NCBI GenBank assembly: GCA_965243855.1
Contig: CBDEWE010000003.1
Span: forward strand, 4,750,909-4,814,908
Length of the DNA stretch: 64,000 nucleotides
Direction: 5' to 3'
DNA from: an uncultured Candidatus Binatia bacterium
GTDB lineage: Bacteria; Desulfobacterota; Binatia; Bin18
The notes below the pieces were generated by a model. The model did no database searches, had not been told where the DNA came from, and saw nothing but the letters and a program-made list of their open reading frames with translations. Position 1 is the first letter of the stretch, and each line of letters begins with the position of its first letter. The position numbers and the translations under genes were made by a program. Shown here piece by piece: positions 993 through 17,902 of the stretch.

Positions 993-1460
993 TTACGCTG
1001 ATGAAACCATTCTGATGACCGGCAGCAACACGTCGTTCCTGCGAACTGTTGACCGTTCAACCTCGACAAATCCGGCCTTTTTATAGAAGCCCTGAGCATT
1101 GAGGGTGGATTCCAAATAGACATCCCTTTGAGACCCGGCTCGTGCGGCTGTCAGGGCCTGTTCAAGGAGTAAAATGCCCACTCCTTGTTTGGCGCATTCG
1201 GGCGCAACATAGATGGCGTGAATCTCGCCAGGAATAGCCTGCCCGAAACCGAGAACGGAGAGGCCGTCGGTGGCGACAAACATTTCTCCTCTTCCAATGC
1301 CCGGAAGGTAACCTTGTGGAGAACGATTTTTCAGCCAGCCCGCAATCTGCTCGGACGAGTAATGTCCTTTGCACAGGGTTTTGACCGACTGGGTATGAAT
1401 TTCATGAATCCGCCCGGCATCATCGACCGTTGCTTGGCGGATTCTTAATCCCTGCTGCAC
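993..1460 (-). CDS. GNAT family N-acetyltransferase
   Basis: 155 aa. N-terminus IRQATVDDAGRIHEIH, and an acetyl-CoA pocket signature near the C-terminus (QGVGILLLEQ...GFYKKAGF). Confidence 0.8.
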   Translation of the reverse strand: MQQGLRIRQATVDDAGRIHEIHTQSVKTLCKGHYSSEQIAGWLKNRSPQGYLPGIGRGEMFVATDGLSVLGFGQAIPGEIHAIYVAPECAKQGVGILLLEQALTAARAGSQRDVYLESTLNAQGFYKKAGFVEVERSTVRRNDVLLPVIRMVSSA

Positions 1461-1484
1461 GAGACTCTCTTTGGATACCTGAGC

Positions 1485-2954: not shown

Positions 2955-3062
2955 ATGAGCCCGGCACAGGCACTCACCACCGTCTTTTTAGTTTTCCTCG
3001 TAATGGGGCTGATCGGTTTGTTGATCGTTTTTACCGACAGAGGGCTGAAGTGGAAGAAATAA
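2955..3062 (+). CDS. small hydrophobic membrane peptide (35 aa), function unknown
   Basis: GGAGG Shine-Dalgarno 6 nt upstream of the ATG at 2955. Sequence MSPAQALTTVFLVFLVMGLIGLLIVFTDRGLKWKK: one TM helix and a basic C-terminal tail. Sits in an AT-rich islet. Confidence 0.4.
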   Translation: MSPAQALTTVFLVFLVMGLIGLLIVFTDRGLKWKK

Positions 3063-3074
3063 TGCTCTACCAAT

Positions 3075-3488
3075 TTATTTTGCTGTTCTGAGTCCGGCTT
3101 TATTGAGTGTAAGCAGACCTCCACTTAATGCTTGAGTATAAAGACCCTTACAATCAATCAGATTGACTTTTAATTGGGTGGAACGAACCTCCCGGATATA
3201 TAATCCACATTTTATCTCTTCGGCCTCTTCTTCGCTTTGTAGTTTGAAAACGGCCTCTGACCTATCAACATTGTCTTTTTGACCCAGCATCATAAAAGTC
3301 CCTGGCAAACTCCATATGGATAACTTCTTAAATCGTGGGTCAGAAGCGATTTCTTTTTTCAGTCTTTCCTTTACCAGATGCTTTAGAGCCGGCTCCCGAT
3401 ATACGGCCAGGTTCTCTCTGTTTTCCCTGGAGGAGCAGGAAAACATAAAAAAGAGCGCGAAAAATAAGGAGAGCGCTTTCATCCTCAT
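3075..3488 (-). CDS. lipoprotein of unknown function (AT-rich, probably horizontally acquired)
   Basis: 137 aa with signal peptide MRMKALSLFFALFFMFS|CSS (lipobox). The gene is about 42% GC against roughly 60% in the flanks. Confidence 0.6.
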   Translation of the reverse strand: MRMKALSLFFALFFMFSCSSRENRENLAVYREPALKHLVKERLKKEIASDPRFKKLSIWSLPGTFMMLGQKDNVDRSEAVFKLQSEEEAEEIKCGLYIREVRSTQLKVNLIDCKGLYTQALSGGLLTLNKAGLRTAK

Positions 3489-3518
3489 CAGTGCGGAGCG
3501 ACACCTGATACCACAGGC

Positions 3519-4715
3519 TTAAATCACCTCGTCTTCTTTGAGCGTCCGAATCTCGGCCTCGGACAATCCCAGCAATTTGCTGTACACCAGTTCGTTATGC
3601 TCGCCCAGATTCGGACTCGGGGTGTCGTTGGGAGGTTGCTGGTCGTTAAAGCGCCAGGGCGCACCGAGCACGGTGACAGGACCGGCGGTGGGATGATCGA
3701 TATCCTTGAGGATGCCGCGTTCGCGCAGGTGAGGGTCGTTGAGGACTTCTTCGACGGTCTGGACCGCCCCACAGGTGATATCCGCCTCGCCACACAGGCG
3801 CATGATTTCGTGTTTTGGATGACGTGAGGTCCAGGCGCTGACAATCTCATCCACTTCATCCGCGTGTTTGGAGCGGGCTCTATTGGTCGCGAATTTTTCG
3901 TCCCGGGCGATATCCTCACGTCCCATGAGGGTACACAGCGCCTGCCAGCGCTGGTTGTCCGAGGTCAGCAGTAAGACATAGCCGTCACTGGCGGGATAGC
4001 AGTTATACGGAGAGAAGGCGCGATTCGGCGCCCGGTTGCCGGCGCGCTCATAGCTGCCGCCTTGGGCGCGGTAGGCCGATATCTGGGCGGTCAGCGGTCC
4101 GATGGCCGACTCGAACAGCGAGGTTTCTACTTCGAGCCCCTCTCCGGTGCGGTCGCGCTGATGCAGGGCGGCCAGTATGCCGGCCGCAAAATGGATGCCT
4201 GCCATAATGTCCATAATCGGAGGTCCGGCCTTCATCGGTGGCCCGGCTGGATCGCCCGTTGTGCTCATGATGCCGGACAGGGCTTGGACAATGGAGTCAA
4301 ACGCGGGGTAGGCGCTGTACGGGCCGGTCTTGCCATAGCCCGAGCTTGACGCGTAAATGATACGCGGGTTGATACGCTTCAAGTCCTGATAGCCCAGCCC
4401 CAACTTGTCCATGGTCCCGGCGGTAAAGTTCTCGACGACAATATCGGCGTGTGTCACAAACTGTTTGAACAGCTCTTTGCCGCGTTCGGATTTGAGATTG
4501 AGCGTGATGCCTTTTTTGTTCGAGTTGAGCATCACAAAGGGATAACTCTGCTTTTCGGTGTCCGGAATGGGAAAAATACTACGCGCGCGCTCACCGTAGG
4601 GACGCGGCTCGATCTTAATGACTTCGGCGCCGAGCAGACCCAAAACTTGGGCGGCATAGGGACCGTTAAAGACGTGGGTGAGATCAAGAACGCGGATATC
4701 ATCGAGTGCTCGCAT
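3519..4715 (-). CDS. CoA-transferase family III (CaiB/BaiF-type)
   Basis: 398 aa. N-terminus IRVLDLTHVFNGPYAAQVLGLLGAEVIKIEP is the family-III signature. Confidence 0.85.
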   Translation of the reverse strand: MRALDDIRVLDLTHVFNGPYAAQVLGLLGAEVIKIEPRPYGERARSIFPIPDTEKQSYPFVMLNSNKKGITLNLKSERGKELFKQFVTHADIVVENFTAGTMDKLGLGYQDLKRINPRIIYASSSGYGKTGPYSAYPAFDSIVQALSGIMSTTGDPAGPPMKAGPPIMDIMAGIHFAAGILAALHQRDRTGEGLEVETSLFESAIGPLTAQISAYRAQGGSYERAGNRAPNRAFSPYNCYPASDGYVLLLTSDNQRWQALCTLMGREDIARDEKFATNRARSKHADEVDEIVSAWTSRHPKHEIMRLCGEADITCGAVQTVEEVLNDPHLRERGILKDIDHPTAGPVTVLGAPWRFNDQQPPNDTPSPNLGEHNELVYSKLLGLSEAEIRTLKEDEVI

Positions 4716-4840: not shown

Positions 4841-6277
4841 ATGCTGGATCTCATCATTAGCGGGGGAACCGTTGTGACGCCCCATACCACAGCGGAACTG
4901 GATGTAGGCATTACCGGGGAGCATATCGTTGCCGTGGGCCAACCGGGAACTCTGAGTGCCTCTGCCGGACGGGTAATCGATGCAACGGGCAAAATCGTTC
5001 TGCCGGGCGGGATTGAGCCCCATGCCCATATTGGTATTCCCGTCCCGCCGGACTGGACCGGCCAGCCGGACGTGATGACCCAGCCTCCCGAGGCGGCCAG
5101 TCGGGCGGCCGCGTTCGGCGGGGTGACGACCATTATCGATTTTGCCGGCGACCTGTCCCGTAAGGCGCTGCGCGGAGAACGGCGCCGCCCGCTGCTTGAG
5201 GTGCTTGAGCGCCGGCGGACCGTCTTTCGCGACCACTGTTACACGGACTTCGCCTTTCACTACATGCTTGCCGGGGAATGCGGACACCAGGCCGCGGGCC
5301 AGATTGCCGAGGCATTACAAGAGGGCGTGGGCAGCTTCAAGATTTTTACCACCACGGAGGTGCGTATCCCGTACGGACATCTGTGGGAGATTTTTGCTGA
5401 AGTGGCCAAACACGGCGGTATGATGGCCGTCCACGCGGAAGAGGACGAGGTTGTGAATTATATGCTTGAGAAGCTCAAGCGTGAGGGGCGCGACCAAGCC
5501 TATAATATGCACCTCGTCCATAACAATCTGTCCGAAGACTTGGCCTTTCGGACGATCATTCGTCTGGCCGAGCACACCGGTACGGGGGTGTATTTCGTCC
5601 ATACCACGGCCAAAGAAGGCGTGCGCGCCATTGCCGAAGCGCGCCAATCTGGCCAGCCCGTATACGGCGAAGCCCTGCATCACTATCTGCACTTCACCTG
5701 TGAAGATTATAAGAAGCCGGACGGCATGGCGATTCATACCTATCCGGCGCTGAAATTCGCCGACGACCGAGAGGCTCTGGTGGACGGGTTGCTCGACGGA
5801 CGCCTGTGCACCACGGCCACGGACGAGTATACGACCTATAAAGGCCCCAAACTGTTCAGCGATCGTATCGAATCCATCTGCGGTGGGCATAACGGCATCG
5901 AAACGCGCATCCCGGTGGCGTTCACGAAATGTGTAGTCGAACGGGGGATGCCGCTCCAGCGCTTTGCCGCCATCATCGCCACCAACGCAGCCAAGATTCT
6001 GGGTCTGTATCCGCAAAAGGGCGCCATTCAGCCGGGCAGTGATGCGGATATTGTTCTGCTCGACCCTCAGTTGACCAAAACACTTGCCGTGGAGGATCTG
6101 CACGCCGACTCTGACTACAGCATTTGGGAAGGGTATACGTGCCAGGGCTATCCGGTGATGACGCTCTTGCGTGGGAAGGTGATTGTTGAAGACGGCAAGC
6201 TCGTCGGCCACTCGACGGACGGGCGCTGGCTGAAGCGCAAGGTCGGGGGGGATGTTTTGGTTCGGCCCGCTCTGTGA
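4841..6277 (+). CDS. D-hydantoinase/dihydropyrimidinase-family cyclic amidohydrolase
   Basis: 478 aa. GGIEPHAHIG (HxH metal site), and FKIF lysine in the context of a carbamylated lysine. Overall DHPase/hydantoinase architecture. Confidence 0.85.
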   Translation: MLDLIISGGTVVTPHTTAELDVGITGEHIVAVGQPGTLSASAGRVIDATGKIVLPGGIEPHAHIGIPVPPDWTGQPDVMTQPPEAASRAAAFGGVTTIIDFAGDLSRKALRGERRRPLLEVLERRRTVFRDHCYTDFAFHYMLAGECGHQAAGQIAEALQEGVGSFKIFTTTEVRIPYGHLWEIFAEVAKHGGMMAVHAEEDEVVNYMLEKLKREGRDQAYNMHLVHNNLSEDLAFRTIIRLAEHTGTGVYFVHTTAKEGVRAIAEARQSGQPVYGEALHHYLHFTCEDYKKPDGMAIHTYPALKFADDREALVDGLLDGRLCTTATDEYTTYKGPKLFSDRIESICGGHNGIETRIPVAFTKCVVERGMPLQRFAAIIATNAAKILGLYPQKGAIQPGSDADIVLLDPQLTKTLAVEDLHADSDYSIWEGYTCQGYPVMTLLRGKVIVEDGKLVGHSTDGRWLKRKVGGDVLVRPAL

Positions 6278-6298
6278 TGCTATTGTCCGCCTGACAGA

Positions 6299-6356
6299 TC
6301 ATGATTACGTAGGACCCGCAACAACACCAGCGCTTTCAAAAGGAACGCGTCTAGCC
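6299..6356 (+). pseudogene. decayed ~55-bp duplicate of the 5' end of tam (codons 1-18), interrupted by two TAG stops
   Basis: atgattacgtaggacccgcaacaacaccagcgctttcaaaaggaacgcgtctagccgt aligns at about 89% identity to 8004-8060 (atgactacgtgggacccgcaacagtatcagcgctttcaaaaggaacgcgcccagccgt). It translates M-I-T-*-DPQQHQRFQKERV-*. Confidence 0.6.
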
Positions 6357-6690
6357 GTCGGTCCATGCCTGACTTTTTGCGGCACCAGCATGTTCTATTA
6401 TACAGGTCCATCTGAAATATTTGAGGCTTCTCACACGAGATCAATTCGTGAGAGTTTGTCTGAGGGAGGAAATCCCTAACTGGAAAAATAGAGCAATATC
6501 AGGTATATACTCCAGAGTTCCTTACGCGGTTTCACCGAAGCGAGGCTGGCTGCTCTGGGGATACGTGTTGGTAAAAACAAAAGAATTTTCTGCGGCATTG
6601 TATGTACCAGTATTGTTGTCATTGGCCGTGCTTTCGCATCATTTCATTCGAACCTCCAGCTCCGATCTTTCGACGTGGAAGGGAGGCGGG

Positions 6691-7098
6691 ATGGGGATGT
6701 TTTCGACCCAGGACGATCACGACACACGCTTTGTATCGATTTGGCTGGAGACCGAAGCGGGTGAGTTTATAGCCGCAAGGAAGAATATCGGGAAGCCTCT
6801 AGACCGCTATGTGGCTGAACCCACCGCCTCCAATTTGCAGGCCCTCTGCCGACATCTTGGCGAGGTCGTCTGGATTGACGCAAGACAGAGCAGAACCCCT
6901 ATTCACACCACCGAAAGCGCCGAGCCGGTTCCAGTGGCTATGGTTCAACGTGTGGCATCCGCCGTAGGTGAGCCCCTCATTACTCGTCGTATTCGCGTGA
7001 CTGGCTTTAAGCTCGTTGTGGACGTAGCCAGCGGAGAGCTGCACCACCAAACTCTTGGAACCCTCAATTGCGCAGCGAGCCGTGATGGGCGCAGTTGA
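6691..7098 (+). CDS. hypothetical protein (135 aa), likely partner of the downstream HTTM membrane protein
   Basis: Strong SD (GGGAGG) 5 nt upstream of the ATG at 6691. The longer ORF beginning at 6421 runs through AT-rich sequence that is unlikely to be coding. I recognise no known motif. Confidence 0.45.
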   Translation: MGMFSTQDDHDTRFVSIWLETEAGEFIAARKNIGKPLDRYVAEPTASNLQALCRHLGEVVWIDARQSRTPIHTTESAEPVPVAMVQRVASAVGEPLITRRIRVTGFKLVVDVASGELHHQTLGTLNCAASRDGRS

Positions 7099-7981
7099 TC
7101 GTCTTCGCAGCCACCCTGTGGTGGGGCAGTTAGCCGGTGCGACACCGTGCGATTCTTTTACTGTCATCACCTCTCTCACCCTTGGTATTCTTGTCTTTCG
7201 CGGCTACCGTCACGACTATTTTGAAATTCCCTTTCAGTTGCTCTTTGTCGCATTCTTGCTTGTTCCCAGGCTCCGCACCCAGGCTCTATTCTGGTTTTTG
7301 ATTGCCTGTTTCAGCGGCGCGGCCTTATGGCTCGACTGGCGGTCTGCCGACAACCACAAATATCTGCTGTTCTACTGGCTCGTGACCGTCTTTCTTGTCT
7401 GCGCACAGGGTGAACAGGAGCGACCTCTTCTGGTCAAAAAGGTCGCCCGCTATCTGCTGTGCTTCACCATGACGCTTGCCGTGGCGCAAAAATCTCTCTC
7501 GCCTGACTATTTGAGTGGTGATTTTTTTCAATTTGTCCTTATGACAGATGAACGCTTTAGCGCTGTGGCTGCCCTATTCTGTGGCATTGCCCCCGAGGTT
7601 CTTGAAGCAAATCGGGTGCTGTACCGCCAAGCCTCGGACCCGGTGAACCTGAACGCCACCTTCCCCCTCCTTTTCAGGAATGAAAAACTGGTATTGCTTG
7701 CCGGCGTCATGACGTGGCTCAACTACCTGATCGAGGCCGCCATTGCCGTGCTTGTTCTGCTTCCGCTGTCAGTCCGTTGGTCAATCATCATGCACCTGCT
7801 GTTAGTCGGCTTTATCGCTGCCGTCTATGCTGTGGCTCCGGTCCTTGGCTTCGGTTGGCTGCTGATTATTTGGGGTTATTGTCTCGTGCCCAACGAACTT
7901 GTCGCACTCCGCCTCAGTTATATTGCCTTATTTTTGCTTCTGTGTGTGTATGAAGCCCCGTGGTTGAGCTTGTTGGTGTGA
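7055..7981 (+). CDS. HTTM-domain (vitamin K-dependent gamma-carboxylase-like) polytopic membrane protein
   Basis: 308 aa, about 8 TM segments. The motif LDWRSADNHKYLLFYW matches the vertebrate gamma-carboxylase LDKTSWNNHSYLYGLL region (L-D-x-x-S-x-x-N-H-x-Y-L). The start may instead be at M7085. Confidence 0.55.
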   Translation: MEPSIAQRAVMGAVDRLRSHPVVGQLAGATPCDSFTVITSLTLGILVFRGYRHDYFEIPFQLLFVAFLLVPRLRTQALFWFLIACFSGAALWLDWRSADNHKYLLFYWLVTVFLVCAQGEQERPLLVKKVARYLLCFTMTLAVAQKSLSPDYLSGDFFQFVLMTDERFSAVAALFCGIAPEVLEANRVLYRQASDPVNLNATFPLLFRNEKLVLLAGVMTWLNYLIEAAIAVLVLLPLSVRWSIIMHLLLVGFIAAVYAVAPVLGFGWLLIIWGYCLVPNELVALRLSYIALFLLLCVYEAPWLSLLV

Positions 7982-8003
7982 AACTCTCTCATTCAGTGTT
8001 TTT

Positions 8004-8795
8004 ATGACTACGTGGGACCCGCAACAGTATCAGCGCTTTCAAAAGGAACGCGCCCAGCCGTTTTTCGACTTAGTGAATCGTCTGCCGGATGGCGAGGTGA
8101 CAACCGCCGCCGATTTGGGCTGCGGACCGGGTACGCTCACGGCGACTCTGACCGAACGCTGGCCCCATGCAACCGTGTGGGGGGTGGATAATTCGCCCCA
8201 GATGTTGGCCAAGGCCAGGGGGCTGCCGGCTCAGCCTCGGCTGCATTTTGTGGAAGCGGATATTGTCGAGTGGTCCCCGCCGCAGCGGCTGGACCGCATC
8301 ATCTCGAACGCGGCCTTGCACTGGGTGCCCGAGCATCAAGCCGTTTTACGGCGTTTGGTCGGCCTGCTGACTCCACACGGCGTGCTGGCGGTACAGGTGC
8401 CGAACAATCATGCCGAGGCCGCCCACCGGATTCTGCGTGAGTCAACGCAGCAAGAGCCGTGGAGGTCGCTGCTGGCCGGCTCGGAGGAGCGTTTCACGAT
8501 ACAGACCCCCCGCTGGTATGCCCAAACGCTCCATGCCCTGGGATGTACGGTCCAGGTATGGGAGACGATTTACTATCATCTCTTGTCCGGTGAGAATGCG
8601 GTCCTGGAATGGATGAAAGGCACGGCCCTGCGACCGACGCTTGAGCGTTTGGGCCAACGCCTCGGTCAGGACGGACAGGCCGCATTTCTGGACATGTACG
8701 GCCAGAAGCTCGCCCAGGCGTATCCGGCCGGTCCGAACGGGACGCTGTTTCCTTTTCGCCGCCTGTTCTTTATTGCGCAGCGCGATAAGCCCTGA
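8004..8795 (+). CDS. tam: trans-aconitate 2-methyltransferase
   Basis: 263 aa. N-terminus W-DP-QY-RF-ER, SAM motif DLGCGPG, VEADI, and C-terminus FPFRRLFFIA. All are collinear with E. coli Tam. Confidence 0.85.
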   Translation: MTTWDPQQYQRFQKERAQPFFDLVNRLPDGEVTTAADLGCGPGTLTATLTERWPHATVWGVDNSPQMLAKARGLPAQPRLHFVEADIVEWSPPQRLDRIISNAALHWVPEHQAVLRRLVGLLTPHGVLAVQVPNNHAEAAHRILRESTQQEPWRSLLAGSEERFTIQTPRWYAQTLHALGCTVQVWETIYYHLLSGENAVLEWMKGTALRPTLERLGQRLGQDGQAAFLDMYGQKLAQAYPAGPNGTLFPFRRLFFIAQRDKP

Positions 8796-8891: not shown

Positions 8892-10121
8892 GTGTCAGAC
8901 AGCACGCACAAACGCGCGATCTTCATTCTGGCCGGGGCGGTGTTTGCCACCATGCTGGGAAACGGCATGGTGATGCCCTTTATTCCCGTGTATGTCGCGC
9001 AATTCGGCCTGGGCGGCCTGGGGGCAGGCTTGCTGTTCAGCGTCCATGCCGCCACCCGGACCGTGTTGCTGCCGTTCATCGGACGCGCGTCCGACCGCTG
9101 GGGCAGACGTGGCTTTTTGCTGGTGGGGGTGCTGTTCTACGCCTTGGCCTCCCTGGCCTATCCCCTGGCCGACCGGGTCGCTGCCTTTGTCGGCATTATG
9201 GCAGTCCACGGCACGGGCATGGCCATCGTCCATCTGGTTTCCATGGCCTATGTCGGGGACCTGGCACCGCGCGGTGAGGAGGGCCGCTACAGCGGATATA
9301 TGAATACCGCCCTCTTGGGCGGGATTGCTAGCGGGCCTGTCCTGGGAGGAGTCATCCGCGACCTGTCCTCCATGTCGGTCAATTTTCTGACGATGAGTGT
9401 CATGAGCGGGGTGTCCTTTTTCTTGCTGGCGATCCTGCTGCCGCCTGTCGAATCCATCCGGACCGGACCGAAAAATCCCCAGCCAGCCTCCACCAGGCCC
9501 TGGCAATTACTCTCCTGCCGTCCGGTCGTCGGGGTAGCGAGCTTTCGTCTCGCCTATGCGTGTACGAACGCGTTGATCTGGATATTCTTGCCGGTTCTGG
9601 CCGCCCGGCTGTGGACCTTATCCACGACGCAGATCGGGGTGTTAATCTCCGTCAATGTGATGGTCAGCACCGTGTTGCAAGCCCCCTGTGGCCGGCTGGC
9701 CGACCGCAAGCGGAAGGCCGTGCTGATTACCCTGGGTGGAGTCGGCAGTGCGCTTGCCCTGGCCGCTGTTCCGTTTGCGACCGTGTTCTGGCAGGTGCTG
9801 GCTCTCAATATCTGTATAGGCGCGTGCTACGGCTTGGCCTTCCCGGCCCATACCGCAGTCGGCATGGAGAACGCCGGTCCGTACGGTATGGCCACCGTCA
9901 TGAGCCTGCTGATGATGGCGCACGGCGCCGGCATGATGGTTGGGCCGCTGCTGTTCGGCGCCATTGCGGATCAGCTGAGTCTGGCCTGGGCGTTCTGGGC
10001 TGGGGGGCTGATCAACCTCGGCCTGGTAATCGCATGTTGGCTGTTACTGGTCGGAGCGCCGGCCAAGCTGGAAGTCGAACCGCTCCGACCCGTGAACACC
10101 GATCCCGTTGAGGCGGACTAA
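8892..10121 (+). CDS. MFS transporter
   Basis: 409 aa, 12 predicted TM helices. The motif GRASDRWGRRGF lies between TM2 and TM3 (MFS signature D-R-x-G-R-R). GTG start. Confidence 0.85.
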   Translation: MSDSTHKRAIFILAGAVFATMLGNGMVMPFIPVYVAQFGLGGLGAGLLFSVHAATRTVLLPFIGRASDRWGRRGFLLVGVLFYALASLAYPLADRVAAFVGIMAVHGTGMAIVHLVSMAYVGDLAPRGEEGRYSGYMNTALLGGIASGPVLGGVIRDLSSMSVNFLTMSVMSGVSFFLLAILLPPVESIRTGPKNPQPASTRPWQLLSCRPVVGVASFRLAYACTNALIWIFLPVLAARLWTLSTTQIGVLISVNVMVSTVLQAPCGRLADRKRKAVLITLGGVGSALALAAVPFATVFWQVLALNICIGACYGLAFPAHTAVGMENAGPYGMATVMSLLMMAHGAGMMVGPLLFGAIADQLSLAWAFWAGGLINLGLVIACWLLLVGAPAKLEVEPLRPVNTDPVEAD

Positions 10122-11239
10122 AAGAACTTGATGACGCTTCGGGCCACCCCGCTGCCCGTTTTCAGCAGATCGTAGGCTTCGTTGACCTGTTCGAGCGAGA
10201 AGGTCTTGGAGACCAACTCGTCAATTTTGATCTTTTTATCCATATACATGTCGAGCAGGCGGGGCATGTCGACGCGGGGACGGGTCGAACCGTAGTACGA
10301 GCCCTGAATCCGCTTTTCCATCAAACAGAAGATGTTCGGGTTGATCGAGATGCGCGAACCGTCGGGCGACACGCCGACCACCGTACACACGCCCCCGCGG
10401 CCCGTCATCTTGAACGCCAATTCGATCGTCTTGGGTGTGCTGATGACCTCGAAGGCATAGTCGGCCCCGCGTCCACCGGTCAGTTCCATAACCGCCTTGA
10501 AGGCGTCGTCCTGGCCGGGATTGATGGTATGGGTCGCACCAAAGGTCTTGGCAAACTCCAGCTTCGAGTCGAGCAGATCGACCGCAATAACCTGCCGCGC
10601 CCCCGCCAGGGCACAGCCCTGAATGACGTTGAGACCCACCCCGCCACAGCCGACGACCACGGTGGATGAGCCGGGCTGGACGTTGGCGGTGTTGACTGCC
10701 GCCCCAACCCCGGTCATGGTTCCGCAGCCCACAAAACACGCCCGGTCGAGCGGAATATCCTCTCGGATTTTGATGGCGCAACTCTCGTGGACAACGGCCT
10801 CCTCCGCGAACGAGGCCGTGTACGCAAAGTGGAAAACCTCCTCGTTGTTCTTGCGCAGGCGTGTTGTCCCGTCCAAGAGCGTGCCGAGTGCTCTGGGCCG
10901 GGTCTCACACAGATGCGGTTGTCCCTGGGTACAATAGTGGCAGGTGCCACAGACGGGATTGAAAGACAGCACGACATGGTCGCCCTCTTTGACCGAGGTC
11001 ACGCCGGCGCCAACCTCGGTGACCACCCCGGCGCCCTCATGACCCAGAACCATGGGCAGCGGCATCCGCATATCGCCGGTCATGACGTGTAAATCGCTAT
11101 GACAGGCGCCGTTGGCCGCCACCTTGACCTTGACCTCTCCGGCTTTGGGCGGGTCGATGTGTAAATCTTCAATCACGAGTGGTTTGTTCGGCTCATATAG
11201 CACCGCAGCTTTCATGGACATTCCCTCCTGTTGATACAA
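10118..11239 (-). CDS. zinc-dependent alcohol dehydrogenase (class III/formaldehyde-DH-like)
   Basis: 373 aa. GHEGAGVVTEVG zinc-binding signature, CHSDLH, GxGxxG Rossmann motif (VVGCGGVG). Confidence 0.85.
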   Translation of the reverse strand: MYQQEGMSMKAAVLYEPNKPLVIEDLHIDPPKAGEVKVKVAANGACHSDLHVMTGDMRMPLPMVLGHEGAGVVTEVGAGVTSVKEGDHVVLSFNPVCGTCHYCTQGQPHLCETRPRALGTLLDGTTRLRKNNEEVFHFAYTASFAEEAVVHESCAIKIREDIPLDRACFVGCGTMTGVGAAVNTANVQPGSSTVVVGCGGVGLNVIQGCALAGARQVIAVDLLDSKLEFAKTFGATHTINPGQDDAFKAVMELTGGRGADYAFEVISTPKTIELAFKMTGRGGVCTVVGVSPDGSRISINPNIFCLMEKRIQGSYYGSTRPRVDMPRLLDMYMDKKIKIDELVSKTFSLEQVNEAYDLLKTGSGVARSVIKFF

Positions 11240-11360: not shown

Positions 11361-13610
11361 ATGAATAACCCTGGTATGAAATTCCATCGAAGGCGGTGTG
11401 GAGGAGTGCTGTCCTGGGTTGTGTTGCTGTGCGCCGCTACGCTGCTGCCGTCTGACGTGCTTGCCCAGCCGCAGCACACGCTCGAAGATATTACCGTCAC
11501 GGCCCGTAAGCAGGAGCAGCGCGCATTCGATGTGCCCTTATCGCTGTCCGTGCTCCAGGACGAGGGGCTCGACCGGTTGCGCTCGTCGGGTATGGACGTG
11601 CGTTTTCTGAACAACCGCGTGCCCAGCCTGCAAGCCGAGTCGTCCTTTGGACGCTTCTTTCCCCGATTCTACATACGCGGCTTGGGCAATACCGACTTCG
11701 ATATGAATGCGTCTCAGCCGGTCTCGGTGATGTACGACGGGATTGTGTTGGAGAACTCCCAACTCAAGAGTACCCCGGTTTTTGATATCGAGCGGATCGA
11801 GGTGTTGCGCGGACCGCAGGGGACGCTCTTTGGGCGTAACACCACCGCCGGTGTCATCAAGATCGAGTCGGCCCGTCCGACCTGGGACTGGGAGGGCTAT
11901 GGCCGGTTGTCCTATGGACGATTCAACAGCGTGAATTTTGAGGCGGCACTGTCCGGTCCGCTGATCCCGTCCGTCCTGGCGGCGCGGGCCTCGGTGCTGG
12001 TCCAGCGTCGGAGCGACTGGGTAGACAACACCTACACTGACGAGGATAACGCCCTGGGCGGCTATCGCGATGTGGCCGGACGGCTTCAGTTTTTATTGAC
12101 GCCGACCGAGAATCTGTCCGGGCGGTTCAAGGTCCATATTCGCGACTTCGGCGGCACGCCCCGCCTCTTTCGGGCGAATGTGCTTAAGCCGGGCCAGGCC
12201 GACCTGGTTTCGGGCTTCCGACGCGACAAAATCGCCCATGACGCCGACGGTGACGCCGGGGTGAGCGGCCACGGCTTCGCCTCCGAGTTGCACTACACGC
12301 TTGGGCCGGTCCGGCTGATCTCGCTGACTGGTGGGGAATGGCTCGACAGCTTCGCAAGCGGCGATATCGACGGTGGCTATGGTGCGGTCTGGAGTCCGCC
12401 CAGCGGGCCGGGCCTGATTCCGTTTCCGGCCGAGACTGAGGACGGGATATCGGCTCTGCGTCAGTTAAGCCAGGAGGTTCGTCTGGAACACACGGCCTGG
12501 CAGCGCCTGGACTGGCGGGTGGGTGTCTTCTATTTCCACGAGGAACTCGACATGTTCGGCCTCAACTACGACACCCTGGCTGGGAATGTCGTGAATGGCC
12601 GTATCCGCCATGAGCAACGCACCGAGGCGTGGGCCGTGTTTGCCGGGGCAACGCTGAGCATCACCGACAATCTCGAAGTCGCCGCCGGCGTGCGCGTCTC
12701 TGAGGACGACAAGGAATACCGTATCGAACGGCTACAGTCGCCCATTGGAGCCGGACCGCTGGGCCCGCTCCACAAGGCCCCCCGCGACCTGGTGCCGAGT
12801 TGGGACCTGAGCCTGCGCTACCAGCCGCGGCCCGGCGTCCAGCCCTACGTCCGCGTGGCCAGCAGCTTTCGCGCGCCCAGCATTCAGGGCCGGTTGCTGT
12901 TCAGCGACGAGGTGACTGTGGCCGACACCGAGGACATCATCTCGGTCGAGGTCGGCCTGAAGACGCGCCTGTGGCAGCAGCGGCTCCACCTTGATCTGGC
13001 GGCCTATCATTTCTGGATGAACGATCAACAACTCACCGCGGTGGGCGGCGATGCCAATGTCGCCCGCCTGGTGAATGCCGACCGTACCATCGGACGGGGG
13101 GTTGAGGCTGAGCTGGCGCTGGTCCTGGCCCGAGGCCTGCGCTTTACCGCCGGCGCCAGTTACAATTATACGCGGCTTGACGACCCCGGTCTGTTCATCC
13201 CCCCGTGTGGCGCGGACTGCACCGTCCTGGACCCGCCCGGACCGGTGCCCGGTACCGTGTCGATTGACGGCAACCGGCTGTACCAGGCACCACGCTGGAT
13301 TGTAAATTTCAGTCTGGACTATACCCGCGTGCTTGCCGGTGGCTCGACCCTGATAGCGTCCACCGATTGGGCCTACCGCAGCCGTATTAACTTTTTTCTG
13401 TACGATTCGCGAGAATTCCGTGACGATCACCGGCTTGAGGGCGGGGCACGCGTGGCCTGGGTGTCGCCTTCCGGTGTCCTGGAAGTCGCGGCCTTTGGCC
13501 GTAATATTCTGAACGACACCTCTCCCGCCGGTGGCATCGACTTCAACAACCTGACCGCCTACATCAACCAACCGTCCTACTGGGGTGTTGAAGGGGTCGT
13601 GCGTTTCTGA
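11361..13610 (+). CDS. TonB-dependent outer-membrane receptor
   Basis: 749 aa. Signal peptide, plug domain (DITVTARKQEQRAFDVPLSLSVL), beta-barrel, C-terminal aromatic residue (..VVRF). Confidence 0.85.
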   Translation: MNNPGMKFHRRRCGGVLSWVVLLCAATLLPSDVLAQPQHTLEDITVTARKQEQRAFDVPLSLSVLQDEGLDRLRSSGMDVRFLNNRVPSLQAESSFGRFFPRFYIRGLGNTDFDMNASQPVSVMYDGIVLENSQLKSTPVFDIERIEVLRGPQGTLFGRNTTAGVIKIESARPTWDWEGYGRLSYGRFNSVNFEAALSGPLIPSVLAARASVLVQRRSDWVDNTYTDEDNALGGYRDVAGRLQFLLTPTENLSGRFKVHIRDFGGTPRLFRANVLKPGQADLVSGFRRDKIAHDADGDAGVSGHGFASELHYTLGPVRLISLTGGEWLDSFASGDIDGGYGAVWSPPSGPGLIPFPAETEDGISALRQLSQEVRLEHTAWQRLDWRVGVFYFHEELDMFGLNYDTLAGNVVNGRIRHEQRTEAWAVFAGATLSITDNLEVAAGVRVSEDDKEYRIERLQSPIGAGPLGPLHKAPRDLVPSWDLSLRYQPRPGVQPYVRVASSFRAPSIQGRLLFSDEVTVADTEDIISVEVGLKTRLWQQRLHLDLAAYHFWMNDQQLTAVGGDANVARLVNADRTIGRGVEAELALVLARGLRFTAGASYNYTRLDDPGLFIPPCGADCTVLDPPGPVPGTVSIDGNRLYQAPRWIVNFSLDYTRVLAGGSTLIASTDWAYRSRINFFLYDSREFRDDHRLEGGARVAWVSPSGVLEVAAFGRNILNDTSPAGGIDFNNLTAYINQPSYWGVEGVVRF

Positions 13611-13644
13611 CGACGGGTGCGAACCGGGCCGGTGCCGCAACACC

Positions 13645-15936
13645 ATGAGAGAGAATACGCTGCCACTGCGCGACCCTACCTGGAGCCTCGCGTCACTGCT
13701 GACCAGACTGGCGGTGACAGACCGCGCGCGCCGGCTCGGCGGGTGGGTCGTGGCGTTGTGGGCCGGGTTGCTGCCGTCTGTCGTGCTCGCTCAGCCGCAG
13801 CACGCGCTCGAAGATATTACGGTCACCGCCCGCAAGCAGGAGCAACGCGCCTTTGACGTGCCGTTGTCGCTGTCCGTGCTCCAGGGCGAGGGGCTCGACC
13901 GGCTACGCGCCTCGGGTATGGATGTGCGTTTTCTGACCAATCGAACGCCCAGCCTCCAGGTCATGTCGGGTTTCGGACGTGTCTATCCGTATTTCTTTAT
14001 CCGTGGTCTGGGCAATACGGACTTCGACATGAATGCCTCCCAGCCGGTGTCGATCATGCACGACGGGATTGTGCTGGAAAACCCGTGGCTCAAGGGACAT
14101 CCCATCTTTGATGTCGAGCGGGTCGAGGTGCTGCGTGGACCGCAGGGCACGCTGTTTGGGCGGAATACGCCGGCCGGCATCGTGAAGGTCGAATCGGCCC
14201 GTCCGACCTGGGGGTGGGAGGGCTATGGTCGGTTGTCCTACGGACGGTTCGACAGCGTGAATTTCGAGGGGGCGCTGTCCGGTCCGCTGATCTCGTCTGT
14301 CCTGGCGGCACGCGCCTCTCTGTTGGTACAGCGCCGGAGCGACTGGATAGATAACACCTATACCGGCAAGGACAACGCCCTGGGTGGCTACGATGACATT
14401 GCCGGCCGCATCCAGTTTGTGTGGACACCGGTGGAGAATTTTTCCGGGCGGTTCAAGGTTCATGTCCGAGACTTTGACAGCAATGCCCGGGTCTTCCGGG
14501 CGAATATATTCAGGCCGGGCCGCACCGGTCTACGCCCAGGGCTACGGCGCGACAAAACTGCCCAGGACGCTGGCAATCCGCAGTACCTGGCGAGCCACGG
14601 GTTTGCCACCGAGCTGCACTATACCCTGGGCGAGTTCCGCCTGATCTCGCTGACCGGTGGGGACTGGCTGGACGGCAGATCGCGCGGCGACGTGGACGGT
14701 GGCTATGGTGCGGTCTGGAGTCCGCCCAGCGGGCCGGGTCTGATTCCGTTTCCAACCGAGACGGCCGACGGCCTCTCGGCTCTGCGCCAGTTGAGCCAGG
14801 AATTCCGCCTGGAACACACGGCCTGGCAACGCCTGGACTGGCGGGTAGGCTTCTTTTACTTCCACGAGGAACTCGACATCGAGGGTTTCAGCTATGACAC
14901 CCTGGCCGGGAGTGTACTGAACGGCCGCATCCGTCAGGATCAACGCACCGAAGCCTGGGCCGTGTTTGCCGCCGCTACCTTTACCCTGACCGAAAATATC
15001 GAACTGGCTGCGGGTGTGCGTGTCTCCGAGGACGACAAGGAGTACGCGAGTGAGCGTCTTCAATCGCCCATTGGTGCCGGTCCGCTCGGTCCCATCCATA
15101 GGGCTCCCCGCGACCTGGTACCGAGCTGGGACCTGAGCCTGCGTTATCAGCTGCGACCTGGCATTCAGCCCTATGTGCGAGTGGCCAGCAGCTTTCGCGC
15201 TCCTAGCATCCAGGGCCGGTTGCTGTTCGGTGACGAGGTGACCGTGGCCGACACCGAGGACATCATCTCGGTCGAGCTTGGTCTGAAGCTGCGTGTGTGG
15301 CAGCAGCGTGTCCATTTGGACCTGGCGGCCTATCATTTCTGGATGCACGATCAGCAGCTCACCGCGGGGAGCGGTGTGGACAATGCCAACCGGCTGCTGA
15401 ACGCCGACCGCACCATCGGACGGGGCATCGAGGCGGAGGGGACCGTGGCCTTGGGCCATGGGCTGCGCCTGACGGCCGGCCTGAGTTATAACTACACCCG
15501 GCTCGACGATACGGGTCTGTTTGTTCAGCCGTGCGGTTCGGACTGTACGGTCCTTGACCCGCCCGGCCCGGTTCCAGGTACGGTCTCCATTGACGGCAAC
15601 CGTCTGCCTCAAGCCCCCCGCTGGATCGCCAACCTGAACCTGAGCTATACGCGCGTGTTACCCAGCGGTGCGGCCTTGATCCTGGCGACCGACTGGGCGT
15701 ATCGCAGCCGCATCAATTTCTTTCTGTACGAGTCGCGCGAGTTTCGCGACAATCATCTGCTTGAGGGCGGCCTGCGCCTGTCCTGGCTGTCGGCCTCGGG
15801 CGGTCTGGAAGTGGCCGCCTTTGGCCGCAACATCCTGAACAACGTCTCGCCCACCGGCGGCCTCGACTTCAACAATCTGGCCGGCTACGTCAATGAGCCA
15901 CCGGTGTGGGGCATAGAAGCGGCGGTACGCTTGTGA
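13645..15936 (+). CDS. TonB-dependent outer-membrane receptor (tandem paralogue of the upstream gene)
   Basis: Starts MRENTLPL at 13645. Shares long identical blocks with the 11361 gene (for example SGFASELHYTLG, AVWSPPSGPGLIPFP). Confidence 0.85.
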   Translation: MRENTLPLRDPTWSLASLLTRLAVTDRARRLGGWVVALWAGLLPSVVLAQPQHALEDITVTARKQEQRAFDVPLSLSVLQGEGLDRLRASGMDVRFLTNRTPSLQVMSGFGRVYPYFFIRGLGNTDFDMNASQPVSIMHDGIVLENPWLKGHPIFDVERVEVLRGPQGTLFGRNTPAGIVKVESARPTWGWEGYGRLSYGRFDSVNFEGALSGPLISSVLAARASLLVQRRSDWIDNTYTGKDNALGGYDDIAGRIQFVWTPVENFSGRFKVHVRDFDSNARVFRANIFRPGRTGLRPGLRRDKTAQDAGNPQYLASHGFATELHYTLGEFRLISLTGGDWLDGRSRGDVDGGYGAVWSPPSGPGLIPFPTETADGLSALRQLSQEFRLEHTAWQRLDWRVGFFYFHEELDIEGFSYDTLAGSVLNGRIRQDQRTEAWAVFAAATFTLTENIELAAGVRVSEDDKEYASERLQSPIGAGPLGPIHRAPRDLVPSWDLSLRYQLRPGIQPYVRVASSFRAPSIQGRLLFGDEVTVADTEDIISVELGLKLRVWQQRVHLDLAAYHFWMHDQQLTAGSGVDNANRLLNADRTIGRGIEAEGTVALGHGLRLTAGLSYNYTRLDDTGLFVQPCGSDCTVLDPPGPVPGTVSIDGNRLPQAPRWIANLNLSYTRVLPSGAALILATDWAYRSRINFFLYESREFRDNHLLEGGLRLSWLSASGGLEVAAFGRNILNNVSPTGGLDFNNLAGYVNEPPVWGIEAAVRL

Positions 15937-16027
15937 CGGGCGGTTCGGCATGGCTTTGCGGTGTTGCCAAACGGTTCGGGCTCAGGCAAAACGGAGCATA
16001 TCTTACGGAAGGAAAAGGAGGCAAAGC

Positions 16028-16309
16028 ATGATTGCATTGGTCGCAAAGCTGACGGTTCGCGAAGGCAAGGAGCAGGATTTTATTGATGCCATGAAGGATG
16101 TCGTCCCGGCCGTGCGTGAAGAGCCCGGCAACAGCGCCTATGTGATGAACCGTTCGAAAGAAAATCCGAGCATGTTCGTATTCTACGAGGAGTATACGGA
16201 CCAGGCCGCTTTTGATGCCCATCGTAAGCATCTCGGCGAACTCGGGGTGGACCTGAGGGCCATCCTCGCCGGCGCGCCGACGCTCGAATTCTATGAGAAG
16301 ATATACTAG
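16028..16309 (+). CDS. ABM/Dabb-fold (antibiotic-biosynthesis-monooxygenase-like) small protein
   Basis: 93 aa, MIALVAKLTVREGKEQDFIDAM.... SD AAGGAGG upstream of the ATG at 16028. Confidence 0.6.
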   Translation: MIALVAKLTVREGKEQDFIDAMKDVVPAVREEPGNSAYVMNRSKENPSMFVFYEEYTDQAAFDAHRKHLGELGVDLRAILAGAPTLEFYEKIY

Positions 16310-16324
16310 AGTGCGTTCCCCGTT

Positions 16325-16360
16325 GAAGTAGCCTAACTATCGAAGAGGGACACGGCATAT
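16325..16360 (+). terminator. Rho-independent terminator
   Basis: gagggacacg-gcatat-cgtgtccctc followed by TTTTTGTTT, 15 nt after the ABM gene stop. Confidence 0.7.
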
Positions 16361-16440
16361 CGTGTCCCTCTTTTTGTTTGCGCGTATGGGAATGCTTGCG
16401 TAGTGTTGAGGTGAAAAGCCACACTCAGAACGAGGCTCTT

Positions 16441-16896
16441 ATGATGCTCGAAATTGACCCGGAGGCCAAACAAGGCGTCCAACTCGGTCCGGTGACGGTG
16501 ACCGCTGAGGATATTCAATCCTTTGCCGAGGCGATGGGCGATCTCAACCCGCTGTATACGGACGTTGAGGCGGCGCGCGCCGCCGGCTACCCGGACGTTA
16601 TTGCCCCCCCGATGTTCTGTATGCGGATGCGCGGCGGCAGAATGCTGCCCGAGGTCCCGCTCCCGTCCGGCTTCATGAGTCTGAACGCGGGACAGGAACT
16701 CGAATTCCACGACGAGATTATTGCCGGGCAGACCTATACCATTACCTCGCGTGTGGCCGATGTGTATGAAAAAACAGGCCGGAGCGGCCCTATGGAGATC
16801 ATTGTTCGGGAGTCAACGATTACGGATGCCGAGGAACGAACGATCGTGACGATCCGCGAGCGACAAATCGTGCGCTCACCGGAAAAGAAAATCTAG
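16441..16896 (+). CDS. MaoC-like hot-dog fold protein (N-terminal-type dehydratase subunit)
   Basis: 151 aa from ATGATG at 16441. FAS1/MaoC_dehydrat_N-like (PLYTDVEAARAAGYPDVIAPPMF). Confidence 0.7.
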   Translation: MMLEIDPEAKQGVQLGPVTVTAEDIQSFAEAMGDLNPLYTDVEAARAAGYPDVIAPPMFCMRMRGGRMLPEVPLPSGFMSLNAGQELEFHDEIIAGQTYTITSRVADVYEKTGRSGPMEIIVRESTITDAEERTIVTIRERQIVRSPEKKI

Positions 16897-16907
16897 GTCC
16901 AGGACTC

Positions 16908-17882: not shown

Positions 17883-17902
17883 CCAAACGGAAAGGAGAAC
17901 GC

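What the first reader, a model, noticed from the sequence alone, without database searches (positions are those of the whole stretch)
6299..8060. Decayed 55-bp duplicate of the tam start brackets a 1.65-kb insertion
Positions 6299-6356 repeat the first ~18 codons of tam (8004-8060) at about 89% identity, now carrying two in-frame TAG codons. The copy sits 22 nt after the hydantoinase stop. This implies hydantoinase and tam were once adjacent, and that about 1.65 kb (6357-8003) was inserted near tam codon 18. A short duplication of the target then decayed, or a second intact tam start was supplied. The insert begins AT-rich (~45% GC for 6360-6700) and carries two genes, an unknown 135-aa protein and an HTTM membrane protein. 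No transposase or integrase is present, so the mechanism is unclear.
Basis: seen in the sequence. Interest (0 to 1): 0.55.

Follow-up and report, generated by a model that had tools for sequence, protein, structure and literature searches.

The report
Dead tam start left by gene insertion
A 58-base dead copy of the start of a methyltransferase gene marks where two genes of unknown function were inserted next to it in some uncultured Binatia bacteria; this is an ordinary one-off rearrangement, not a new kind of mobile element.

Summary
Window 6301-6358 repeats tam 8004-8061 (51/58 identical, all 7 differences transitions, in-frame TAG at codons 4 and 18). It sits 23 nt after the hydantoinase-like gene's stop.

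Twenty-three related Candidatus Binatia loci settle the polarity. At least five close relatives have Hyd stop, the same 23-nt spacer, then tam (empty site). Seventeen loci carry the same insert with identical junctions, so this was one event.

The upstream copy is a dying fragment: open (no stop codon within the 58 nt) in L005, L007 and L010, stop codons here, a 3-nt deletion in L030, and 49- and 116-nt deletions in L001 and L006.

The insert has no transposase, integrase or terminal inverted repeats. It carries a two-gene module, a 135-177-aa protein and a 298-aa membrane protein. The membrane protein has no Pfam HTTM hit, but its confident model resembles vitamin-K carboxylase (TM about 0.5). 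The module occurs at 75-78% DNA identity in unrelated contexts, and here its conserved tail is cut short.

The bases flanking the module look like the two halves of the older Hyd-tam spacer. I therefore favour (about 0.5) an intergenic landing followed by unequal or illegitimate recombination with an empty allele. A single insertion with a 58-nt target duplication is the main rival (about 0.3). Filled, empty and a third allele are interspersed on flanking-gene trees. Interest is low.

The parts
4841..6277 (+). Hyd: hydantoinase/dihydropyrimidinase-like cyclic amidohydrolase, the left flank of the site
   Evidence: Pfam Amidohydro_1. NCBIfam TIGR02033 scores 328 bits, full length but below the 393 cut-off. 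Syntenic in 18 Binatia loci.
6278..6300 (+). 23-nt Hyd-tam spacer of the 'empty' allele type (TGCTATTGTCCGCCTGACAGATC)
   Evidence: The same spacer lies between the Hyd stop and the tam ATG in empty loci L002, L004, L008 and L011, and before the remnant in all filled loci.
6301..6358 (+). Dead remnant of tam nt 1-58, with TAG at 6310-6312 and 6352-6354
   Evidence: 51/58 identical to 8004-8061. Orthologous remnants are open (no stop in the 58 nt) in L005, L007 and L010, carry a 3-nt deletion in L030, and are cut to 36 and 34 nt in L001 and L006. There is no codon-position pattern in its divergence.
6359..6378 (+). Left junction (6358|6359) and about 20 nt that resemble the left half of the older Hyd-tam spacer (CGGTCCATGCCTGACTTTTT)
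   Evidence: Local alignment to the L017 spacer GCCTGACGTTTTTT scores 11 (shuffle P = 0.008; 47 of 9137 genomic windows reach it). L012 has CGGCCAGCCTGAC just upstream of tam (P = 0.019). These comparisons were chosen after seeing the data, so they are suggestive only.
6379..6564 (+). AT-rich 5' region of the insert (about 45% GC), with no homologue outside the filled alleles; presumed promoter region of the module (inference)
   Evidence: No BLASTN or TBLASTX match outside the filled loci upstream of about 6580. Flat codon-position divergence. No Rfam hit. No sigma-70-like site was found on the + strand of 6200-8100.
6565..7098 (+). orfA: 135 aa from the ATG at 6691, possibly 177 aa from the GTG at 6565 with an N-terminal hydrophobic helix; function unknown
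   Evidence: Only 5 homologue clusters in 5.8e9 proteins. 6595-6699 is 74% identical over 35 aa to the sequence upstream of the L028 homologue. The third codon position diverges fastest. No Pfam, NCBIfam or PADLOC hit. The AF2 model is unusable (pLDDT 34).
7085..7981 (+). Memb: 298-aa all-helical membrane protein whose start overlaps the orfA stop; distant HTTM/GGCX-like fold
   Evidence: 26 homologue clusters, none with a Pfam domain. AF2 model pLDDT 90, pTM 0.86. The only consistent PDB fold matches are vitamin K-dependent gamma-carboxylase (prob up to 0.97, TMq 0.47-0.52, E about 0.7). Purifying selection is indicated by third-position divergence of 0.063 against 0.016-0.029.
7982..7998 (+). 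Truncated 3' tail of the module (AACTCTCTCATTCAGTG), with the right junction at or near 7998|7999
   Evidence: In L026, L027, L028 and L031 the homologous tail continues as the hairpin CCCTC-GTTCAGT-GAGGG and at least 15-30 nt more. In the window homology stops after TTCAGTG.
7999..8003 (+). TTTTT: tam-proximal bases of the older spacer type. With the preceding GTG it is identical to GTGTTTTT|ATG of L003.
   Evidence: L003 GCCGTGTTTTT|ATG, L009 GTGTTTTCC, L013 TTGTTTTCT, L017 TTGTTTTCC. The empty allele has CAGGCC|ATG instead.
8004..8795 (+). Functional tam-like SAM methyltransferase (263 aa)
   Evidence: NCBIfam trans-aconitate 2-methyltransferase models match full length but below cut-off: 277.5 bits against 320, and 261 against 297. 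Pfam Methyltransf_25/31/12/11. Intact in all 23 Binatia loci.

Best explanation
First layer (shown, about 0.9). In the ancestor of this Binatia group the Hyd-like gene and tam were adjacent, separated only by a short spacer. One rearrangement, which happened once, placed a foreign fragment of about 1.64 kb between them. That fragment is a two-gene module (orfA plus an HTTM-like membrane protein) that lives in unrelated contexts in other genomes. The rearrangement left two copies of tam nt 1-58. The downstream copy heads the intact gene. The upstream copy (6301-6358) has no function and is decaying by point mutation here and by small deletions elsewhere. The filled allele has since spread among related genomes by homologous recombination through the conserved flanks. 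It coexists with the empty allele and with a third allele carrying a fatty-acid hydroxylase and an Flp pilin gene.

Second layer (inferred, about 0.5). No mobile-element machinery was involved. The module first landed in the intergenic Hyd-tam spacer of one chromosome, so it is still flanked by spacer-like bases: CGGTCCATGCCTGACTTTTT on the left and (GTG)TTTTT|ATG on the right. The present structure then arose when that allele met an empty-type allele in an unequal exchange. One end was homologous and the other was an illegitimate joint at tam nt 58. This could have been homology-facilitated illegitimate recombination, a single crossover of a circularised fragment, or an equivalent tandem duplication of about 80-100 nt covering the spacer plus the tam start. 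On this reading the second tam start was brought in, or duplicated, together with its own upstream bases. This explains why similarity between the two copies begins exactly at the ATG.
For: Empty sites with the same 23-nt spacer are found in L002, L004, L008 and L011, homologous spacers in L015 and L023, and Hyd-tam adjacency in the more distant L017, L018 and L022.

All 17 filled loci share the left junction GCC(G/A)T|CGG and the right junction CAGT(G/A)TTTTT|ATG, except where later deletions removed the left one. This points to one event.

The remnant decays independently: stops in the window, a 3-nt deletion in L030, and 49- and 116-nt deletions in L001 and L006. Its divergence is 11% with no codon pattern.

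The module is found at 75-78% nt identity in four other contexts (L026, L027, L028/L029, L031), without flanking repeats there. Its conserved tail is cut in the window. There are no terminal inverted repeats: score 7 against shuffles of 6.7 +/- 1.3. No recombinase is present.

The insert is younger than the flanks. Third-position divergence among 7 filled loci is about 6% in the insert against 15% in Hyd and tam, and diversity jumps at both junctions.

Filled, empty and D-type alleles are interspersed in all five flanking-gene trees. For example, L030 (filled) is 98.3% identical to L009 (D-type) over 4.5 kb of left flank.

For the second layer: the 8 nt before the functional ATG equal those of L003, not those of the empty allele. 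The first 20 nt of the insert align to the L017 and L012 spacers (P = 0.008 and 0.019). PMC3240628 documents both one-ended homologous plus illegitimate integration and single-crossover integration that duplicates the homologous segment around the inserted DNA.
Against: No intermediate allele was found in 25 genome loci or 17 metagenome contigs. That is, none has the module in the spacer without the remnant, and none has a duplication without the module.

The spacer-like matches are short (5-8 nt on the right, about 20 nt on the left) and were noticed after the fact. Correcting for the 8 spacers compared brings the left-hand P to about 0.05.

TTCAG also occurs in the L017 spacer, so the exact right junction is ambiguous.

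The remnant's own upstream spacer is the derived 23-nt type, while the functional copy has the older type. This needs either two alleles or later conversion.

No close donor copy of the module (above 80% identity) was found outside this locus, so microhomology at the left joint cannot be checked.
Confidence: 0.5

Rival explanations
1. A single-step insertion into tam after nt 58 of an empty-type chromosome. A linear foreign fragment (6359-8003) was joined at a staggered break, or copied in by replication template switching that re-entered upstream of the exit point. This duplicated exactly tam nt 1-58. The TTTTT and the spacer-like left end would then be donor sequence or filler that resembles the spacer by chance.
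For: This needs the fewest events. Both copies were nearly identical at origin, with consensus remnant and consensus functional copy differing at 1-2 of 58 nt. The remnant is preceded by exactly the empty-allele spacer. No intermediate alleles were found.
Against: The duplication would have to begin exactly at the A of the ATG by coincidence. The 8 nt before the functional ATG match another natural tam upstream allele (L003), and the first 20 nt of the insert match the spacer. A 58-nt target duplication is not typical of any known insertion mechanism (own knowledge).
Confidence: 0.3
2. The two 58-nt repeats are attL and attR of a small integrase-less cassette. A recombinase encoded elsewhere mobilises it into the 5' end of tam, and the cassette carries a replacement tam start so that the gene survives.
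For: The architecture (direct repeats flanking the insert, the left repeat with a chromosomal upstream flank, the right repeat with an element-side upstream flank) is what site-specific integration into a gene end produces. The module does occur in several genomic contexts.
Against: No recombinase is present in the insert. All 17 filled loci are one inherited event, not repeated integrations. In the other contexts the module has no flanking direct repeats and no tam-like sequence. The module tail is truncated here relative to those copies, so the ends are not defined. The repeats are left to decay. The other insert at this site (D-type) has no tam duplicate.
Confidence: 0.05
3. Polarity reversed for the close relatives. 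The filled state is older within this species group, and some 'empty' genomes are revertants that lost the insert by homologous recombination between the two 58-nt direct repeats.
For: Deletion between the repeats would regenerate exactly the empty site, with the ATGACT start that both the remnants and the empty alleles carry. Filled and empty states are interspersed on the trees.
Against: Outgroups (L015, L017, L018, L022, L023) are all unfilled. The insert coalesces more recently than the flanks. The interspersion is equally explained by allele exchange. Even if true for some genomes, the remnant still requires an earlier Hyd-tam adjacency.
Confidence: 0.07
4. The upstream copy is kept for a function, for example as a short leader ORF or regulatory element for the inserted genes.
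For: In L005, L007 and L010 the 58 nt carry no stop codon. In L005 the ATG opens a 23-codon ORF (read from the sequences).
Against: The window copy has stops at codons 4 and 18. L006 has lost the ATG. L001 and L006 have lost 22-24 nt of the remnant plus adjacent DNA. Divergence is 11% with no codon pattern. There is no Rfam match.
Confidence: 0.03

Closest known systems
Homology-facilitated illegitimate recombination (HFIR) and single-crossover (Campbell-type) integration of a fragment carrying part of the target gene
   Same: Foreign DNA enters with one homologous exchange and one illegitimate joint. Alternatively, a circular molecule carrying a piece of the target recombines once and leaves that piece duplicated on both sides of the insert. 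PMC3240628 reports lacZ duplications of 109-950 bp flanking the integrated DNA and micro-homologies of 3-10 bp at HFIR joints. No dedicated recombinase is needed and the ends are arbitrary.
   Different: Classical HFIR usually deletes recipient DNA rather than duplicating it. Here the duplicated homology is only 58 nt. The donor allele has not been found, and the process is inferred from natural variation in uncultured bacteria rather than observed.
Flexible genomic islets / replacement alleles at a conserved chromosomal position
   Same: At least three alternative contents (nothing; orfA+Memb; FA hydroxylase +/- Flp pilin) occupy the same Hyd-tam interval in closely related genomes. They are shuffled among lineages by recombination in the conserved flanks.
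   Different: This islet is very small (0-2.4 kb). Unusually, it retains a molecular scar, the tam remnant, that records how one allele was made.
Transposon or IS insertion with target-site duplication
   Same: A direct repeat of target sequence brackets the inserted DNA.
   Different: The repeat is 58 nt rather than the few bases typical of IS elements (own knowledge). There is no transposase, there are no inverted repeats and the ends are not defined.
HTTM / vitamin K-dependent gamma-carboxylase-like membrane proteins (Pfam PF05090), for the cargo protein Memb
   Same: A multi-helix membrane protein of about 300 aa. A confident AF2 model has GGCX chains as its only consistent PDB matches (TMq about 0.5, prob up to 0.97).
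   Different: None of 26 family members has a Pfam HTTM hit even at E <= 1. Foldseek E-values are about 0.7-1.5 and sequence identity is 13-14%. Catalytic residues were not examined.

Membership tests
IS element / transposon | Encodes a transposase | tested here: not met
   Neither ORF of the insert hits any Pfam or NCBIfam family.
IS element / transposon | Terminal inverted repeats at the insert ends | tested here: not met
   The best local alignment of 6345-6420 to the reverse complement of 7945-8015 scores 7, against shuffles of 6.7 +/- 1.3. No terminal pair appears in the repeat finder.
IS element / transposon | The same defined ends at independent insertion sites | tested here: not met
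   In four other contexts the shared segment runs 32-50 nt past the Memb stop, whereas here it is cut at 17 nt. The left limits also differ.
Integrase-mediated integrative element (attL/attR) | Direct repeats of the target flank the element | tested here: met
   58-nt repeats at 6301-6358 and 8004-8061.
Integrase-mediated integrative element (attL/attR) | Tyrosine or serine recombinase within or next to the element | tested here: not met
   None in the insert. The flanking genes are CoA-transferase, Hyd, tam, MFS and ADH.
Integrase-mediated integrative element (attL/attR) | Repeated independent use of the same site, or att-like repeats at other copies | tested here: not met
   All filled loci share one set of junctions. 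Other module copies lack flanking repeats. D-type inserts carry no tam duplicate.
HFIR / single-crossover integration | One junction homologous, one illegitimate, with short micro-homology | tested here: inconclusive
   The right side runs into intact tam, and GTG (3 nt) is shared between the module tail and the L003-type upstream. The left-joint partner sequence is unknown because no donor was found.
HFIR / single-crossover integration | Existence of a donor allele with the module next to tam or Hyd and no remnant | tested here: not met
   Not seen in 25 genome loci or in 17 contigs carrying the module. Sampling is limited to one genome per species and one protein cluster.
HTTM (PF05090) for Memb | Match to the Pfam HTTM profile | tested here: not met
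   No hit for the window protein (E <= 0.01) or for any of 26 homologues (E <= 1).
HTTM (PF05090) for Memb | Fold of the GGCX membrane domain | tested here: inconclusive
   GGCX chains are the top and only consistent matches (prob 0.77-0.97, TMq 0.47-0.52), but E is about 0.7-1.5.
Trans-aconitate 2-methyltransferase (Tam) | Score above the NCBIfam equivalog cut-off | tested here: not met
   PRK14103 scores 277.5 against 320 and PRK01683 scores 261 against 297. Both alignments are full length. The protein is 'Tam-like'; its substrate is untested.
D-hydantoinase / dihydropyrimidinase | Score above the NCBIfam equivalog cut-off | tested here: not met
   TIGR02033 scores 328 against 393, full length. 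It is a cyclic amidohydrolase of that superfamily; its substrate is untested.

The most novel reading that the evidence does not exclude
The orfA-Memb pair is a minimal, recombinase-less mobile cassette that is moved in trans and targets gene starts. It carries a surrogate 5' end so that the interrupted gene is rebuilt. On this reading the 58-nt repeats are its attachment sites rather than an accidental scar.
Probability: 0.04. Interest if true: 0.6.

Novelty: new member of a known kind. Interest (0 to 1): 0.22.

Why it matters
This is a clean natural example of a small gene pair entering a bacterial chromosome without any mobile-element machinery. Empty, filled and alternative alleles are all sampled, and a dated scar decays in different ways in sister lineages. 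It shows that uncultured Binatia exchange small islets by homologous recombination. It also flags a tiny unannotated protein family, a distant HTTM-like membrane protein with a small partner, as accessory cargo. It does not reveal a new mechanism or system. Its practical value is for annotation: the 58-nt fragment should not be called a gene, and tam starts at 8004.

Tried and rejected
- An exact-protein look-up of the window's Tam, and of the representative P0001, found nothing.
- The metagenome scan with Memb returned only one more filled locus, L030.
- The search for terminal inverted repeats was negative.
- The search for direct repeats around module copies in other contexts was negative.
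- An Rfam search of 6200-8100 gave no hit.
- The promoter and terminator scan was at background level. The 5-bp hairpin plus T-run at 6357-6373 straddling the left junction is no better than shuffles.
- There are no paralogues of the insert elsewhere in the window.
- BLASTN and TBLASTX of 6359-6580 against all loci found nothing outside the filled alleles.
- The PADLOC scan of both cargo proteins gave only a meaningless KwaA hit at E = 0.05.
- The structure prediction of orfA failed (pLDDT 34), so no fold search was run.
- Contexts of P0012 and P0042 were uninformative. One is a low-coverage contig and the other a frameshifted filled locus.
- I considered whether a divergent donor tract marks the filled alleles' tam. 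Only nt 4 (G) is specific to them, so there is no evidence of a distant donor.
- The excess of private substitutions in the window's remnant (5/58 against 8/332 in the neighbouring non-coding DNA, Fisher P = 0.03) is too weak to interpret.
- My first tblastn used orfA coordinates one base off (6692). Hits were still found through DNA homology. The coordinates were corrected to 6691-7098 after the error.
Full report
**1. The observation**

Window 6301-6358 and 8004-8061 form an ungapped 58-nt direct repeat with 51 identical positions, or 88%.
- All seven differences are transitions.
- Two of them create in-frame TAG codons, at codon 4 (6310-6312) and codon 18 (6352-6354).
- The second-best match to the tam start anywhere in the window has 25 mismatches. 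The chance expectation for the observed match is about 7e-15.
- The copy starts at the ATG, 23 nt after the stop of the upstream amidohydrolase gene (4841-6277), and ends after tam nt 58.
- Between the copies lie 1645 nt (6359-8003). GC is 45-47% for the first 250-340 nt, against 58% for the window.

**2. The genes**
- The left flank (Hyd) is a cyclic amidohydrolase closest to D-hydantoinase/dihydropyrimidinase models, below their cut-off.
- The right flank is a 263-aa SAM methyltransferase. It matches trans-aconitate methyltransferase models over their full length, also below cut-off.
- The insert has two overlapping ORFs.
  - orfA runs 6691-7098 (135 aa). Conservation at the protein level upstream of that ATG, plus a weak codon-position signal, suggests a possible GTG start at 6565, giving 177 aa with a hydrophobic N-terminus.
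  - Memb runs 7085-7981 (298 aa).
- Neither ORF matches any Pfam, NCBIfam or PADLOC family.
- Memb belongs to a family of only 26 clusters among 5.8 billion proteins. orfA belongs to one of five clusters.
- A confident AlphaFold model of Memb (pLDDT 90) has the vitamin K-dependent gamma-carboxylase as its only consistent PDB match, with TM about 0.5 and probability up to 0.97 but E about 1.
- Both genes evolve under purifying selection.

**3. Relatives**

A genome scan with Tam returned 23 loci from Candidatus Binatia MAGs. Synteny mapping and junction read-outs show the following.
- **Empty sites.** L002, L004, L008 and L011 have the Hyd stop, the same 23-nt spacer, then the tam ATG. L015 and L023 have homologous 21-26-nt spacers. 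The more distant L017 (43-nt spacer), L018 and L022 (1 nt) also have Hyd next to tam.
- **Filled sites.** L001, L005, L006, L007 and L010, plus L030 from a metagenome, ten more contigs and a frameshifted one, carry the same insert. All have the 23-nt spacer followed by the tam remnant. All that retain the region share the left junction GCC(G/A)T|CGG(T/C)CC and the right junction CAGT(G/A)TTTTT|ATG. This was therefore a single historical event.
- **A third allele (D-type).** In L003, L009 and L016 the interval instead holds a minus-strand fatty-acid hydroxylase gene, with or without an Flp pilin gene.
- **No Hyd.** L012-L014, L019 and L020 lack Hyd altogether.

**4. The remnant is dead**

It carries no stop codon in L005, L007 and L010. 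It has two stops in the window and a 3-nt deletion in L030. It has an ATG-to-GTG change plus a 116-nt deletion in L006, and a 49-nt deletion in L001. Its divergence among filled loci is 11% with no codon pattern. The consensus remnant and the consensus functional copy differ at only 1-2 of 58 positions. Most of the 12% divergence seen in the window is therefore private decay: 5 singleton changes.

**5. Population history**
- The insert is less diverged among seven filled loci than the flanks. Overall divergence is 3.5%, about 6% at third positions and 5.3% in its non-coding part. Hyd and tam show 15% at third positions. Diversity steps up at both junctions.
- In trees of five flanking genes, filled, empty and D-type loci are interspersed. 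L030 (filled) and L009 (D-type) are 98.3% identical over 4.5 kb of left flank, up to 22 nt before the Hyd stop.
- The alleles are therefore exchanged by homologous recombination in the conserved flanks. This makes the interval a small flexible islet.

**6. What the insert is not**
- There is no transposase or integrase.
- There are no terminal inverted repeats.
- The ends are not defined. The same module occurs at 75-78% nucleotide identity in four unrelated contexts (L026, truncated, in the genome of an empty-site strain; L027; L028/L029; L031). Those copies have no flanking repeats.
- In those copies the sequence after the Memb stop forms a hairpin, CCCTC-GTTCAGT-GAGGG, and homology continues 32-50 nt. 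In the window it stops after TTCAGTG, 17 nt past the stop.
- This is the signature of an arbitrary break, not of an element end.

**7. How the second tam start arose**

Two details argue that it was not a simple target-site duplication.
- First, the 8 nt before the functional ATG (GTGTTTTT) are identical to the tam upstream of L003. They are close to those of L009, L013, L014 and L017 (TTGTTTTCC-type). The remnant, by contrast, is preceded by the derived CAGGCC of the empty allele. By inspection, the 23-nt spacer can be derived from the 43-nt L017 spacer by two deletions (my inference).
- Second, the first 20 nt of the insert (CGGTCCATGCCTGACTTTTT) align with the left half of that older spacer. 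The matches are GCCTGACGTTTTTT in L017 and CGGCCAGCCTGAC in L012. P is 0.008 and 0.019 by shuffling, and 0.5% of genomic windows reach the L017 score.

So the module appears to sit inside a second copy of the Hyd-tam spacer. The duplicated unit is then spacer plus tam 1-58.

The simplest history has two steps. The module first landed harmlessly in the spacer of one chromosome. That allele and an empty-type allele were then joined unequally, with one homologous exchange and one illegitimate joint at tam nt 58. This could be HFIR, integration of a circularised fragment by a single crossover, or an equivalent tandem duplication of about 100 nt. Both one-ended integration and duplication of the homologous segment around inserted DNA are documented experimentally (PMC3240628). 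This history also explains why similarity between the copies begins exactly at the start codon: only the coding sequence is shared between the two arrangements.

I give this about 0.5. The caveats are that the matches are short and were noticed after the fact, and that no intermediate allele was found. The main rival, at about 0.3, is a one-step insertion after nt 58 with a 58-nt duplication, by a staggered break or by template switching. An att-site or integrase reading is disfavoured (about 0.05).

**8. Consequences**

tam remains intact in every genome. In filled alleles it lies 22 nt after Memb, and the module's terminator-like hairpin has been removed. It is therefore probably co-transcribed with the module (inference). 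The fragment at 6301-6358 should not be annotated as a gene.

**9. Verdict**

The phenomenon is a known kind: an illegitimate-recombination scar in a recombining islet. Its interest is low to modest.

Noticed in passing
window 3062-3519: An AT-rich segment (about 41-48% GC) holds a minus-strand 137-aa lipoprotein-like ORF (3075-3488, MRMKALSLFFALFFMFSCSS...). It is present in the window, L001 and L032-L040, but absent from L002, L004, L030 and others. This is a second presence/absence polymorphism 3 kb upstream.
   Followed up: partly
window 999-1483: A stretch of about 485 nt has no counterpart in the otherwise collinear L002 locus.
   Followed up: no
window 10115-10125 (MFS/ADH convergent junction); L002 12116-20419, L030 9032-11074: The interval between the MFS transporter and the alcohol dehydrogenase is also variable. 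It carries about 8.3 kb extra in L002, about 2 kb in L030, and other sizes in L003, L005, L009, L015 and L016.
   Followed up: no
L003 4088-6540; L009 7748-10000; L016 8774-10000: A third allele of the Hyd-tam interval carries a minus-strand fatty-acid hydroxylase (PF04116) and, in L003 and L009, an Flp/Fap pilin gene (PF04964). The breakpoint lies 22 nt before the Hyd stop, giving Hyd a different C-terminus (ISRPVV against LVRPAL) that resembles the outgroup L018/L022.
   Followed up: partly
window 8004-8061: The window's functional tam start (ATGACT...CAACAGTAT) is identical over 58 nt to that of the empty-site locus L011. It differs from all other filled alleles, which have ATGGCT. This suggests a recombination or gene-conversion tract ending right at the start codon.
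   Followed up: partly
L026 5840-6953 (genome of L008): A genome with an empty Hyd-tam site carries a truncated module copy elsewhere: Memb only, with orfA missing. It is fused to 128 nt of an HTH_3 regulator gene that lies 0.7-1.6 kb upstream of the module in L027 and L028. The module may therefore be part of a larger conserved unit.
   Followed up: partly
L031 1240-2412: Relative to L028, this module copy has a 1.17-kb insertion 50 nt after the Memb stop. The insertion includes a DUF4096 (transposase-related, faint hit) fragment.
   Followed up: no
L021 1664-4706; L004/L007 about 13420-17960: L021 has two tandem Hyd paralogues (71% and 74% identity to the window's Hyd). L004 and L007 have two tandem segments of about 2.2 kb that are 77-78% identical, downstream of ADH.
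   Followed up: no
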